64,000 nucleotides of DNA, from IMG/VR virus record IMGVR_UViG_3300011008_000026, positions 30,501 through 94,500 of that record; one strand, 5' to 3'. Source of the stretch: a virus (Duplodnaviria > Caudoviricetes). Both the position numbers and the translations under genes were made by a program. The first letter of the stretch is position 1. Each line of letters begins with the position of its first letter. The notes under the pieces are model-generated. The model saw only the letters and a program-made list of their open reading frames with translations. It was not told where the DNA came from and did not search any database. This document shows, piece after piece, positions 61,211 to 64,000 of the stretch.

Positions 61211-61861
61211 ATGATCAACGAAAAGATGACTGTGCACAAAGCTCTGGCTGAACTCAAAACCCTGTCTTCCCGTATCAACGACGCGATTGGAGAAGCGTCC
61301 TTCGTAACGACGAACAAGCATGGTAACACCAGGCTGAACGGCAAGCCCATCTCCGACTTCAACAATTCCGCTCTGGACGCTATGAAGTCGATTACGGCCC
61401 TGATTAATCGCCGCAACGCGATTAAGCGAGCCGTCACCAACTCCAATGCTGTCACCAAAGTGACCATCGGAGACACGGAGTACACCGTCGCCGAAGCCAT
61501 CGACATGAAAGCCAACGGAATGGCGTTCAAGCAGGCGTTGATGAACCGGATCTCGGCTCAGCTGGAAGCGGCCCGTCGTACCGTAGACCGTGAGAACGGC
61601 CAGAAGCTGGACGACCGTGCCGATCAGTACATCCGCAATCTTTACGAGAATGCTGAGATGAAGAACCTGTCCGATGAAGTTAAGAAGGTTCGGAATGAGT
61701 TTGTAGACTCTCAGACCGTTGACATTATCGATCCGATTCATGCGGAAAACGAGCTGAAGAAGCTTCGGGATGAGATCGATTCCTTCATGACCGAAGTAGA
61801 TTCCGCGCTGTCTGTCTCGAACGCCCTGACGACGATCGAGATCGAATACGAGACATACTAA
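61211..61861 (+). CDS. Helical coiled-coil protein (possibly DIP1984/DUF6847-like)
   Basis: MTVHKALAELKTL...TVAEAID...EVDSALSVSNALTTIEI; strong RBS; family call tentative. Confidence 0.75.
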   Translation: MINEKMTVHKALAELKTLSSRINDAIGEASFVTTNKHGNTRLNGKPISDFNNSALDAMKSITALINRRNAIKRAVTNSNAVTKVTIGDTEYTVAEAIDMKANGMAFKQALMNRISAQLEAARRTVDRENGQKLDDRADQYIRNLYENAEMKNLSDEVKKVRNEFVDSQTVDIIDPIHAENELKKLRDEIDSFMTEVDSALSVSNALTTIEIEYETY

Positions 61862-61869
61862 GATAAAAC

Positions 61870-62250
61870 ATTGCCTGAATGCGAAAACCGTGAACCATAT
61901 TCACTGTGTGGCCGCAGGGATAACCACCCAGTTTAAACTCTAAAACCCTGCAAATAACAGCTTGCGCTATAAGCTAAATATGAATAAGTGAGAGCAGCCA
62001 GACCGCCTAAGATAACGGCGGAGAATGCTGTTTTCAACCGGCATACATATGTGTGTATAGCCTGCGTGGCAAGGCCACGGTAAAGTTCATATTTCAACGC
62101 TGAAAGAACAAAGCTGAAAGCTTAAACTTTATGTTTGTGTAAAGTTTAACGAGTAACGGTTAAGCAGTAAGATTCGATAAAATCCCGGGTAAAGGGTTAG
62201 CGGTTGAATATGATGCCGCACGGTGAACCCCCGGGCTGCATTCAGGCAAT
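61870..62250 (+). ncRNA. Putative ~380-nt structured non-coding RNA
   Basis: Closed by 13-bp ATTGCCTGAATGC/GCATTCAGGCAAT; many internal helices; no ORF in the track. Confidence 0.6.
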
Positions 62251-62260
62251 TTTTATATAC

Positions 62261-62320
62261 GTAGGTATCGAAGGTTAACATCAAAAATTTGGTGTATGAG
62301 TTCAAATCTCATTACCTGCA
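62261..62320 (+). ncRNA. tRNA-like element (acceptor and T arm, no canonical D or anticodon arm)
   Basis: GTAGGTA...TACCTGC-A acceptor; ATGAG-TTCAAAT-CTCAT T arm; internal ACATCAAA/TTTGGTGT hairpin. Confidence 0.55.
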
Positions 62321-62356
62321 AGAAAAAAGAAAATGATTAAAAAGTAGGAGATTAAT

Positions 62357-63136
62357 ATGGCTGCTAAGAAAAAGCTGGTTGCAACAATTGAAACCGAAAA
62401 TGGGACCGTAGAAGAAACTTTTAATCCCGAAACCGCAAGCACCCGTGTAGAAATTAAGCCGGTTCCGATTGAGAAAGCCAGGATTAAGATTATTGGTGAT
62501 ACACCCCTGCTCGTTCATGCGTGGAGTGAAAAGGCTAAGAAGGAAATGCTTGCAAACCAGCAGATGTCCGCTCGTGAAAAGAAGGTTAAGGAACATGACA
62601 AGAGAGAGCCATTTGCTGACTTTGTAGAAGCGGCTTACTGGATTACTCCGCAGCCTGAGGTTCGCGGATTGCCCGAAGAAAAACAAATCAAACTGTTTGA
62701 AGATGCCATCGAGAATGGTGCACAGTTTGGATTCCCGGTCATCGCATTCAAACAGGCTACGATTCTTGCCTGTAAAGACGCTGGATTCATTCGTGGTACT
62801 ACCATCATGCGCAGGCTGTTCCATGTCAATGCTGTGAATGGCGCTCATGTTCGTTCCTCTCAGGAACTGGCTATTCTGAATATCGAAGAGCCGCCGGAAC
62901 TGTCTGAAGACGTCGTGAAGATTGGTCTGAGCAAGGTTGCCGATCTGCGGTATCGTCCTTCTTTCCGAAAGTGGAGCGTGGAGCTTGAGCTGAGTCTGAT
63001 TAAGACTGGTATGTTCGAAATGAGCGATATCATTACCGCGATCGATATGGCTGGATTTATGAACGGCGTTGGCGAATGGCGTATCGAGAAGAACGGTGAA
63101 TTTGGATGCTTCCATGTAGCAAGGGAAGGTGAGTAA
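62357..63136 (+). CDS. Stand-alone RAMP/Cas7-like protein
   Basis: ARIKIIGDTPLLVH first strand; FGFPVIAFKQA (cf. RAMP IPGSSLKG); C-terminal glycine loop AGFMNGVGEWRIEKNGEFGCFHV. Confidence 0.7.
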   Translation: MAAKKKLVATIETENGTVEETFNPETASTRVEIKPVPIEKARIKIIGDTPLLVHAWSEKAKKEMLANQQMSAREKKVKEHDKREPFADFVEAAYWITPQPEVRGLPEEKQIKLFEDAIENGAQFGFPVIAFKQATILACKDAGFIRGTTIMRRLFHVNAVNGAHVRSSQELAILNIEEPPELSEDVVKIGLSKVADLRYRPSFRKWSVELELSLIKTGMFEMSDIITAIDMAGFMNGVGEWRIEKNGEFGCFHVAREGE

Positions 63137-63661
63137 ATGCAAGCGTTTGAGTACAAATACAGAGTTTCCGGAATCCACAAAACACCAGCGCAGGTAGCCG
63201 GTGAAGTTTGCGAAGAGTTGTCTCATTCCGAGCTTGGCTTAACTCCTCAGACGCTTGTTGATTTCAGCCGTCCTGTCGAGTCTCCGACTCATCAGGAGTT
63301 TGAATGGGACGACAGCCTTGCAGCTGAAGAGTATCGCAAAACACAGGCCGCGAAGTTGATTCGGAATATCGTTGCTGTCAAAATCGAAGAGACGACTTCC
63401 GAGCGTGTTATCAGTATCATTGAAGAGCAAAGATCTTCTGAACGAAGCGCAGACAACCGGGTCACACAAAGGTGCTTCGTATCAACCGGAGAACGGGATC
63501 ACAACTACGTAACAATCGAAGACGCGATGGAGAACAGCGTCTGGAGAGCGAACCTGCTTGAAGCAGCCAAGCGCGACATGAAAGCGTTTGTCAGCAAATA
63601 CCGCATGTTAAAAGAACTCTCAAATATTATCGTCGAAATGGACGAACTCTTATCTGCCTGA
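63137..63661 (+). CDS. Conserved phage protein, partner of the RAMP-like gene
   Basis: Starts immediately after the upstream stop (TAA ATG); LTPQTLVD...HQEFEWDDSLAAEEYRKTQAAKLIR. Confidence 0.75.
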   Translation: MQAFEYKYRVSGIHKTPAQVAGEVCEELSHSELGLTPQTLVDFSRPVESPTHQEFEWDDSLAAEEYRKTQAAKLIRNIVAVKIEETTSERVISIIEEQRSSERSADNRVTQRCFVSTGERDHNYVTIEDAMENSVWRANLLEAAKRDMKAFVSKYRMLKELSNIIVEMDELLSA

Positions 63662-63716
63662 AGCTAGAAGACGCTTAAAGATCTTTCGGAGTGGGTGAAA
63701 GGCCTGAGAATGGTAA

Positions 63717-64000
63717 GGCAGCAGAGGTACGTCGCGTAATGGAAAGTTAGGGTCGGTCACGGTAAGGCAGCCATGGCGGGTTATGTCTAGCCAGGGAATT
63801 GTCAGTTGGGGCAGCCTAGGATGGTAATGGCAAGGCAAGTTGGATTCTGTTGAGTCGGGTTCTGTTAAGGCAGCCGAGGATGGTTTTGTCGGGGTCCGGC
63901 AGTGTCCGTCGAGTATTGGTTTGGCAGCCGAGGTGAGTTGAGGTGAGTCTTGATCTGCATCGGTTGGGCAGCCATGGTTTGTTGAGTCCTGTTCTGACCA
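63717..64000 (+). repeat. Pentamer-periodic repeat array, candidate guide-RNA array (truncated by the window end)
   Basis: GGCAGCNNN anchors at 63717, 63766, 63810, 63869, 63923 and 63967, separated by 8, 7, 10, 9 and 7 pentamers; 43 of 46 pentamers start with G. Confidence 0.85.

What the first reader, a model, noticed from the sequence alone, without database searches (positions are those of the whole stretch)
62357..64000. Candidate phage RNA-guided system: lone RAMP/Cas7-like gene, partner gene and a 5-nt-periodic non-CRISPR array
Seen: two abutting ORFs (259 aa, 174 aa) are followed within ~55 nt by an array of 9-nt anchors separated by whole numbers of pentamers. The 259-aa protein has the RAMP pattern: an N-terminal strand ending in TPLL, an FP..AFK helix, and a C-terminal glycine loop GVGEWR..NGEFG.F. 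No cas1/2/3/5/6/10 gene is in the window. Established: Cas7/RAMP subunits polymerise along guide RNA with a fixed nucleotide period. Inference: each subunit binds one pentamer, gripping the conserved triplet and displaying the variable dinucleotide, which would make a programmable nucleic-acid-binding filament, plausibly used against competing phages or host genes. This resembles my recollection of recently described VIPR (viral interference programmable repeat) systems with GGY/NN RNAs; I cannot verify that here. This array uses a looser G(G/T)Y triplet.
Basis: partly seen in the sequence, partly recalled or inferred. Interest (0 to 1): 0.97.

Follow-up and report, generated by a model that had tools for sequence, protein, structure and literature searches.

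The report
Phage VIPR locus with staggered guide array
This is a genuine member of the recently described phage VIPR family: a lone Cas7-like protein, a partner gene and an array of 5-base-repeat guide RNAs, which in this group of phages appear aimed at the DNA-replication genes of rival phages. The kind of system was published in 2026.

Summary

- **Partner gene.** The ORF at 63137-63661 is an accessory gene that lies next to vipr in 28 of the 29 relatives' loci searched (SUSP1, the 30th locus, has none).
- **Array.** 63717-64000 is a vrRNA array of G-K-H-N-N pentamers, cut by the contig end. Units end in GGCAG, and that last G also starts the next unit. This fits the "staggered, 1-nt overlap" arrays named in the VIPR discovery preprint.
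- **Conservation.** The three-part module recurs in 25 of 26 distant bacterial loci. In four related phage genomes the pentamer signal occurs only at this array.
- **Targets.** A sister-array guide read with the published 1-nt-skip rule matches 113 viral contigs perfectly (22/22), in frame in a DUF2800 nuclease gene. Other sister guides, and window unit 5 (15/16), hit the adjacent SSB and helicase genes.

Differences from SUSP1 are a looser scaffold (T at G2, A at Y3), no long 3' tail, and an unrelated accessory protein.

Verdict: new member of a known kind.

The parts
62357..63136 (+). vipr gene: 259-aa stand-alone RAMP (Cas7-like) protein, the predicted vrRNA-binding filament subunit
63137..63661 (+). 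vap-type accessory gene, 174 aa; possibly a winged-helix-like N-domain plus a C-terminal helical hairpin
63662..63716 (+). Array leader; a conserved motif at 63679-63707 (AGATCT..CG.AGT.G.TGAAA.G.CTGA) runs into the first GGCAG
   Evidence: The motif is conserved upstream of the array in six related phage or metagenome loci. The consensus fold has only weak hairpins and no compensatory changes. No sigma-70-like promoter was found.
63717..64000 (+). vrRNA array of G-K-H-N-N pentamers, cut by the contig end. Units read as whole pentamers that share one G: U1 63721-63770, U2 63770-63814, U3 63814-63873, U4 63873-63927, U5 63927-63971, U6 63971-64000 (truncated)
   Evidence: Unit lengths of 50, 45, 60, 55 and 45 nt are whole numbers of pentamers once the G of GGCAG is shared. 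Sister arrays have 8-14 units of the same grammar. The last unit resembles the terminal unit of L004, so the array probably ends close to the contig end.
63927..63971 (+). Unit 5, guide dinucleotides GA GA GA GA TT CT TC TG: candidate guide against the 3' end of an Enc34-type SSB gene of rival phages
   Evidence: With the 1-nt-skip reading it matches 15/16 in two target contigs, in frame, with the skipped base at the wobble position. At the homologous site (..DD(D/E)DFL(S/N/D)*) it matches at least 13/16 in 65 of 85 loci, against a background maximum of 12 in 443 control windows.

Best explanation
Proposal: this is a phage-encoded VIPR (Viral Interference Programmable Repeat) system of the staggered-array class.

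Shown here:
- The 259-aa protein is a homologue of SUSP1 Vipr with a Cas7-type fold.
- A conserved accessory gene accompanies it.
- A strand-specific array of G-K-H-N-N pentamers follows.

Inferred by homology with the SUSP1 biochemistry and cryo-EM:
- The array is transcribed and resolved into units of 9-12 pentamers.
- One Vipr protomer binds each pentamer, sequestering the G-K-H triplet with the beta-sheet His, the thumb Arg and the G-loop E-W-R. The two variable bases are left exposed.
- The filament pairs those dinucleotides with double-stranded DNA while skipping every third target base, and silences transcription of the bound gene.

Supported here by natural targets:
- Guides of this phage clade follow the 1-nt-skip rule.
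- They converge on the replication module (DUF2800 nuclease, Enc34-type SSB, SNF2 helicase) of a widespread family of gut/rumen phages whose closest named relatives infect Clostridia.
- The system therefore most likely acts in phage-versus-phage competition.

My reading of unit boundaries: each unit ends in the fixed pentamer GGCAG. Its last G is also the first G of the next unit's G(C/T)CNN, which shifts register by -1 at every junction.
For: Protein:
- PDB 36pp SUSP1 Vipr is hit at E 7.5e-6 and at 2.4e-7 with a profile. BLASTP against the SUSP1 gene gives E 8e-10.
- The SUSP1 contact residues are conserved.

Array:
- Over 346 pentamers of six sister arrays, information content is 1.49, 0.38, 0.59, 0.03 and 0.05 bits at positions 1-5.

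Synteny:
- 25 of 26 genome loci with 32-40% identical Vipr have a pentamer block just downstream on the same strand and none on the other strand. SUSP1 is recovered as a positive control.
- A Vap homologue is adjacent in 28 of the 29 relatives' loci searched.
- Junction spacing is 4 mod 5 in 43 of 51 close units and 64 of 79 distant units.

Targets:
- Sister guide L042-273 has 113 exact 22/22 hits in IMG/VR. The first 80, which I parsed, all lie in one DUF2800 motif and carry 41 wobble variants; frame analysis of all 113 puts the skipped base at the wobble position in 111.
- Independent guides hit the same loci only at skip 1: 20/22, 17/18 and window U5 at 15/16.
- Shuffle control at skip 1: 3 guides with at most one mismatch against 0.33 expected (maximum 2 in 30 shuffles). 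At skips 0, 2 and 3 the counts are 1, 0 and 0.

Guide conservation: two homologous unit pairs differ at 8 scaffold positions and at no NN position.

Published mechanism.
Against: - Nothing here shows that the array is transcribed, how it is cut, or that the protein binds it.
- The discovery preprint says the ribozyme-type and single-vrRNA architectures were confirmed by sRNA-seq; it reports no such confirmation for staggered arrays.
- Four of the five complete window guides have no detected target. Exact IMG/VR scans of U1, U3 and U4 gave nothing, and U2 gave chance-level hits.
- The U5 match is 15/16, not perfect. It lies in an acidic low-complexity tail. On its own it is only about p 0.03.
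- No guide gave a significant hit in the four related phage genomes.
- The scaffold admits T at position 2 and A at position 3. SUSP1 recognises G2 specifically and sterically excludes purines at Y3, so recognition details must differ.
- The accessory protein is unrelated in sequence to SUSP1 vap1, and its fold assignment is weak.
Confidence: 0.84

Rival explanations
1. The pentamer array works at the DNA level: iterons or binding sites for the 174-aa protein, or a packaging or replication-origin repeat. On this view it is not a guide RNA, and the RAMP-like protein does something unrelated.
For: Transcription is untested. The 174-aa protein has a weakly winged-helix-like domain. The array sits at the end of a linear contig.
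Against: The array is strictly strand-specific relative to vipr in about 30 loci across phyla. Positions 4-5 are hypervariable between sister phages while the grammar is kept. Guides read by the RNA-guide rule find perfect in-frame matches in other phages. The protein is homologous to one shown to bind such RNA.
Confidence: 0.04
2. It is a degenerate or orphan CRISPR-Cas remnant: a lone Cas7/Csm3 left over from a type III or type I system, beside an unrelated simple repeat.
For: The best structural matches are Csm3/Cas7 of type III, VII and IV systems.
Against: Sequence identity to Cas7 proteins is only 10-17%, and there are no Pfam or NCBIfam Cas hits, whereas SUSP1 Vipr is hit by sequence. 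No CRISPR repeats were seen in the array or its flanks, and no cas genes in the ORFs examined. The family has more than 2000 cluster representatives, and every locus inspected has the same minimal layout.
Confidence: 0.02
3. It is a VIPR system, but it acts mainly on the phage's own or its host's genes (self-regulation or host takeover) rather than on rival phages. On this view the rival-phage matches of the sister arrays do not apply to this array.
For: Four of the five complete window guides have no identified target. The host genome is unknown and could not be searched. The U5 match is imperfect.
Against: No guide matches its own genome or the three relatives above noise. The published systems show no self-targeting. 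U5 aligns to the same two-gene target region as guides from three sister arrays.
Confidence: 0.1

Closest known systems
VIPR systems, type II, exemplified by Escherichia phage SUSP1 (bioRxiv 10.64898/2026.04.26.720920 and .720927; PDB 36pp)
   Same: - Homologous Vipr protein, with the His, thumb Arg and G-loop (D/E)-W-R contacts conserved.
- Same two-gene layout (vipr then an accessory gene) with the array downstream on the same strand.
- Pentamer repeats made of a conserved triplet plus a variable dinucleotide.
- 1-nt-skip, wobble-aligned matches to genes of competing mobile elements on either strand.
   Different: - SUSP1 Vipr has about 200 aa; this protein has 259, with an N-terminal extension and a larger helical insert.
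- SUSP1 vrRNAs are separate units of about 100 nt, each with a conserved tail of about 45 nt and a pseudoknot. Here units of 45-60 nt abut, with only GGCAG kept constant.
- The scaffold is G-K-H, not G-G-Y.
- The accessory protein has no detectable similarity to vap1.
- No upstream vrRNA was found.
- The targets are the replication genes of a phage family, not a satellite recombinase.
Staggered vrRNA arrays mentioned in the VIPR discovery preprint (its fig. S18)
   Same: The legend describes vrRNAs derived from positions that overlap by 1 nt, where the end of one marks the start of the next. That is exactly what a unit spacing of 5k-1 with a shared G gives here and in the distant relatives.
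   Different: I could read only the legend, not the figure or data tables. I therefore cannot confirm that the published example uses the GGCAG junction, or which of the seven types it belongs to. The preprint does not list this architecture among those it confirmed by sRNA-seq.
Class 1 CRISPR backbone subunits (Cas7/Csm3/Cmr4)
   Same: RRM-based RAMP fold with thumb and glycine-rich loop. Polymerisation along a guide with a fixed nucleotide period and periodic base flipping.
   Different: - The period is 5 nt rather than 6.
- Only 2 of every 5 guide bases pair.
- There is no repeat-spacer array, adaptation genes, large subunit or nuclease.
- Sequence identity is only 10-17%.

Membership tests
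VIPR system | Vipr protein: homologue of the characterised Vipr family | tested here: met
   PDB 36pp_D SUSP1 Vipr is hit at E 7.5e-6 and at 2.4e-7 with a profile. BLASTP against SUSP1 agp039 gives E 8e-10 over 212 residues.
VIPR system | Residues that grip the conserved triplet (SUSP1 H17, R138, D177, W178, R179) | tested here: met
   They align to H54, R200, E240, W241 and R242, all invariant in 19 homologues. D177 is replaced conservatively by Glu. The Y3-pocket residue C173 aligns to N236.
VIPR system | Minimal locus: vipr plus one accessory gene, with no CRISPR array or cas genes | tested here: met
   The two abutting ORFs are followed by the array. The same pair occurs in 28 of the 29 relatives' loci searched. 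The contig ends at the array, so genes beyond it are unseen.
VIPR system | vrRNA: at least 4 tandem pentamers with a conserved triplet and a hypervariable dinucleotide (GGY/NN or a related consensus) | tested here: met
   46 pentamers in the window and 346 in sister arrays. The consensus is G(92%)-K(84%)-H(99%)-N-N. This is a looser consensus than GGY; the preprint allows related consensuses.
VIPR system | Targets recognised by the NN-x-NN (1-nt-skip) code in competing mobile elements | tested here: met
   This holds for the clade. One sister guide matches 22/22 in 113 viral contigs, and independent guides match 20/22 and 17/18 only at skip 1. For this window's own array only U5 has a candidate, at 15/16, so for the window itself the test is partial.
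VIPR system | vrRNAs are expressed, co-purify with Vipr, and repress targets | not testable with these tools
   This needs sRNA-seq, pull-down and reporter assays.
VIPR type II (SUSP1 / P. fulva clade) | vap1 accessory gene, and vrRNAs with a long invariant 3' tail (a pseudoknot in SUSP1) | tested here: not met
   The 174-aa protein against SUSP1 vap1 gives BLASTP E 0.56, and tblastn finds no hit in the SUSP1 locus. Units are separated only by GGCAG, with no tail. The system therefore belongs to another of the seven types. The type could not be assigned, because the type tables and figures are not held.
CRISPR-Cas class 1 | Repeat-spacer array and cas operon (cas1/2, large subunit, Cas5/Cas6) | tested here: not met
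   The array has no repeats of 20-40 nt, only a 7-nt constant element. The two proteins have no Cas families in Pfam or NCBIfam.

The most novel reading that the evidence does not exclude
The staggered GGCAG/G(Y)CNN junction may be a self-delimiting signal. The one-base overlap shifts the pentamer register by -1 at every unit, so Vipr filaments, or an unknown processing activity, are bounded without the long structured tail or ribozyme used by other VIPR types. This clade's Vipr may also read a relaxed scaffold (U tolerated at G2, A at Y3), which would be a variant protein-RNA recognition code. A single compact array would then aim many short guides at the replication module of a rival phage family.
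Probability: 0.35. Interest if true: 0.55.

Novelty: new member of a known kind. Interest (0 to 1): 0.4.

Why it matters
- **Independent confirmation.** VIPR is months old as a concept. This case comes from an uncultivated phage of about 95+ kb, with relatives in several metagenome samples, and shows that the grammar, the gene pair and the 1-nt-skip code hold far from the E. coli and Pseudomonas model systems.
- **Evidence for staggered arrays.** The natural-target data found here bear on the staggered-array class, which the preprint describes but does not report as confirmed by sRNA-seq. They comprise 113 perfect in-frame hits with free wobble variation, and several arrays converging on a DUF2800 nuclease, an Enc34-type SSB and an SNF2 helicase.
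- **Possible practical value.** The relaxed G-K-H scaffold and the tail-less 45-60-nt units could help in designing compact multiplexed guides. They also define what a Vipr protein must and need not recognise.
- **Host clue.** The target family suggests this phage infects gut or rumen Clostridia. That is an inference.

Tried and rejected
- **The look-up of encoding contigs:** I used the search for related loci and leader-motif scans instead.
- **Exact 1-nt-skip scans of IMG/VR with window guides:** U3 (20 bases), U4 (20) and U1 (18) gave zero hits. U2 (16 bases) gave 14 hits, and a guide conserved between sister arrays (16 bases) gave 5. These looked like chance: most were unrelated to one another, and many of the U2 sites had in-frame stops.
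- **All 42 in-frame guides against the four related phage genomes (478 kb), skips 0-3:** nothing rose above shuffles. The single 19/22 hit, in a 203-aa gene of G003, is probably coincidental, because the same guide has 113 perfect hits elsewhere.
- **Scaffold versus NN substitutions between homologous units:** there were too few pairs for statistics (12 scaffold against 6 NN changes).
- **Leader structure:** no covariation was found.
- **Promoter and terminator scan:** uninformative.
- **Host genomes:** relatives cannot be drawn for a virus record.
- **VIPR type I-VII assignment:** the supplementary tables are not held.
- **Minus-strand ORF across the array (63650-64000):** rejected as coding, because a 5-nt period is incompatible with codons.

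Full report
**What is in the sequence.**

Window 62357-64000 holds two abutting plus-strand ORFs, of 259 aa (62357-63136) and 174 aa (63137-63661). After a 55-nt leader comes a repeat region that runs to base 64000. Base 64000 is also the end of the 94.5-kb IMG/VR viral contig in which the window lies, so the array is cut.

GGCAGC(C/A) occurs at 63717, 63766, 63810, 63869, 63923 and 63967. The spacings are 49, 44, 59, 54 and 44, all 4 mod 5.

The 46 pentamers between these anchors have:
- G at position 1 in 43;
- G or T at position 2 in 42;
- C or T at position 3 in 38, and never G;
- free positions 4-5.

Windows with at least 7 of 8 pentamers in register occur at 11 positions in the array. 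Shuffles of the array's own composition give 0.006, and shuffles of the whole contig give 0.04. Across 478 kb of four related phage genomes the signal is found only at this array and only on the vipr strand.

**The protein.**

Pfam and NCBIfam find nothing; PHROGs gives phrog_4652, of unknown function.

A plain phmmer search of PDB sequences returns one significant hit, 36pp_D "SUSP1 Vipr protein", at E 7.5e-6. The G-loop GVGEWR aligns with GVGDWR, and the thumb motif YRP with YRP. A 19-sequence profile improves this to 2.4e-7. I located the SUSP1 gene in NC_028808.2; BLASTP against it gives E 8e-10 over residues 43-254.

The cryo-EM paper names the residues that hold the triplet: H17 and D177 for G1, R138 and W178 for G2, R179 for Y3. 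These align to H54, E240, R200, W241 and R242, all invariant in homologues.

The family is large. There are 1199 close proteins and 2153 50%-identity cluster representatives at E<=0.001.

**The published system.**

VIPR is described in three 2026 preprints.
- The loci are minimal, vipr plus vap, and mostly viral.
- vrRNAs are 9-16 YNNGG repeats.
- One protomer binds one repeat.
- The NN bases pair with double-stranded DNA while every third target base is skipped.
- Natural targets are competing mobile elements.
- Seven types exist, with related repeat consensuses.
- Variant array layouts include "staggered arrays with overlapping vrRNAs", in which neighbours overlap by 1 nt.
- The preprint says the ribozyme-interspersed and single-vrRNA layouts were confirmed by sRNA-seq. 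It reports no such confirmation for staggered arrays.

**Array grammar.**

Three IMG/VR relatives (70-73% identical Vipr) and two further metagenome loci carry arrays of 8-14 units with the same grammar. I found the metagenome loci through the conserved leader motif. In these arrays the anchors are GGCAG(C/T)C, and 43 of 51 units are whole numbers of pentamers. Exceptions show a one-base internal slip.

The tidiest reading is that every unit is made only of pentamers. It starts with G(C/T)CNN and ends with GGCAG, and the final G of one unit is the first G of the next. This gives the 5k-1 spacing and matches the "1-nt overlap" wording of the preprint.

Over 346 internal pentamers the information content is 1.49, 0.38, 0.59, 0.03 and 0.05 bits at positions 1-5. 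Position 2 is G 41% and T 43%. Position 3 is T 59%, A 25% and C 16%. AG is the rarest internal dinucleotide, consistent with GGCAG being reserved for the unit end.

In L002 and L003 the array is followed by a conserved hairpin with a T-run. The window's last unit resembles the terminal unit of L004, so little of the array is probably missing.

**Conservation of the module.**

A scan of one genome per species found 26 loci with 32-40% identical Vipr proteins, in Clostridia, Selenomonadales, Collinsella, Treponemataceae and many Alphaproteobacteria.
- 25 of them have a pentamer block immediately downstream, or after one gene, on the same strand. None has one on the opposite strand. The exception is cut by its contig end. 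SUSP1 is recovered as a positive control.
- Their junctions are GGCAGGC, and the spacing is again 4 mod 5 in 64 of 79 cases.
- tblastn with the 174-aa protein finds a homologue next to vipr in 28 of the 29 relatives' loci searched. It lies either before the array, as here, or after it, as in the Firmicutes loci. There is none in SUSP1.

**Targets.**

Exact 1-nt-skip patterns from window units U1, U3 and U4 found nothing in IMG/VR, and U2 gave chance-level hits. No guide matched the four related phage genomes above shuffles.

A 22-base pattern from a sister array (L042 unit 273) returned 113 viral contigs, where essentially none is expected by chance.
- In the 80 loci I parsed, the site is the same in-frame motif, YALGALELFDD.
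- In two representative loci the gene scores 1e-155 and 5.5e-164 for DUF2800, a PD-(D/E)XK nuclease family.
- There are 41 different wobble variants at the site.
- Over all 113, the skipped base falls at codon position 3 in 111.

I then scanned those 113 loci (946 kb) with the other guides, which had played no part in retrieving them. Matches appeared only at skip 1:
- L004 unit 213 at 20/22, in the adjacent Enc34-type SSB gene;
- L002 unit 627 at 17/18, antisense in an SNF2 helicase gene, with the skipped base at the wobble position in 17 of 17 sites;
- L039 unit 268 at 16/18;
- window unit 5 at 15/16, at the very 3' end of the SSB gene.

Window unit 5 matches at least 13/16 at the homologous site in 65 of 85 loci, against a maximum of 12 in 443 control windows.

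In a shuffle control at skip 1, three guides had at most one mismatch, against 0.33 expected (maximum 2 in 30 shuffles). Skips 0, 2 and 3 gave 1, 0 and 0.

The nearest named relatives of the target phages infect gut Clostridia: Oscillospiraceae, Ruminococcus and Lachnospiraceae, at about 60% identity.

The published code and the inter-phage role therefore hold for this clade. For the window's own array the evidence rests on one imperfect guide.

**Mechanism and its status.**

Shown:
- homology and fold of the protein;
- the array grammar and its conservation;
- the conserved gene pair;
- skip-1 matches to a rival phage family.

Inferred from SUSP1:
- transcription of the array;
- one protomer per pentamer;
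- display of the NN bases;
- gapped pairing with double-stranded DNA;
- transcriptional silencing.

Open:
- how units are separated;
- how T at position 2 and A at position 3 are read, given that SUSP1 excludes purines at Y3;
- what the accessory protein does;
- what units 1-4 target.

**Verdict.**

The locus is a new member of a known, very recently described kind, in the staggered-array class. Three modest variations are worth recording: the G-K-H scaffold, the tail-less overlapping units, and a distinct conserved accessory protein.

Noticed in passing
window 61862-62356: The 495-nt intergenic stretch upstream of vipr has no pentamer array, unlike SUSP1, which has an upstream vrRNA. Rfam finds only a sub-threshold tRNA-like match at 62261-62320 (23.6 bits against a gathering score of 29). 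A piece of it (62164-62258) is 79% identical to L003:10509-10602. There it again lies downstream of the homologue of the 216-aa gene at 61211-61861, so it belongs with that gene rather than with VIPR.
   Followed up: partly
window 61211-61861: This 216-aa ORF matches phrog_1491 ('tail fiber protein', E 9e-53). In relative L003 its homologue lies about 2 kb downstream of the VIPR module instead of upstream, so the module's position relative to its neighbours differs between related phages.
   Followed up: partly
window 63650-64000, minus strand: An open frame of 116 aa runs across the whole array on the opposite strand. It is a by-product of the G/T-rich pentamer composition, not a gene.
   Followed up: yes
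phage records MN234179 (Gordonia phage Pipp), NC_031249, MW534375, NC_028751 (Mycobacterium phage Quico) and about 30 others: Cultured actinobacteriophages encode 29-33% identical Vipr homologues that are annotated only as hypothetical proteins. I did not inspect their arrays.
   Followed up: no
L008, L010, L011, L012, L019 (Clostridia, Selenomonadales and Collinsella MAG loci): In these loci the order is vipr, array, vap. In the window and in the alphaproteobacterial loci it is vipr, vap, array. The same three parts are permuted.
   Followed up: partly
L002:8051-8095 vs L004:7690-7734, and L002:8001-8051 vs L004:7640-7690: Homologous guide units in two sister phages differ at 8 scaffold (G-K-H) positions and at none of the NN positions, as expected if the dinucleotides are the selected information. 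There are too few pairs for a statistical test.
   Followed up: partly
L056:6241-6852 (G003:86241-86852): A 203-aa gene conserved about 3-6 kb downstream of the VIPR module in four relatives carries a 19/22 skip-1 match to the L042-273 guide. That guide's own phage copy matches 15/22. The match is probably coincidental, because the same guide has 113 perfect hits in DUF2800 genes.
   Followed up: yes
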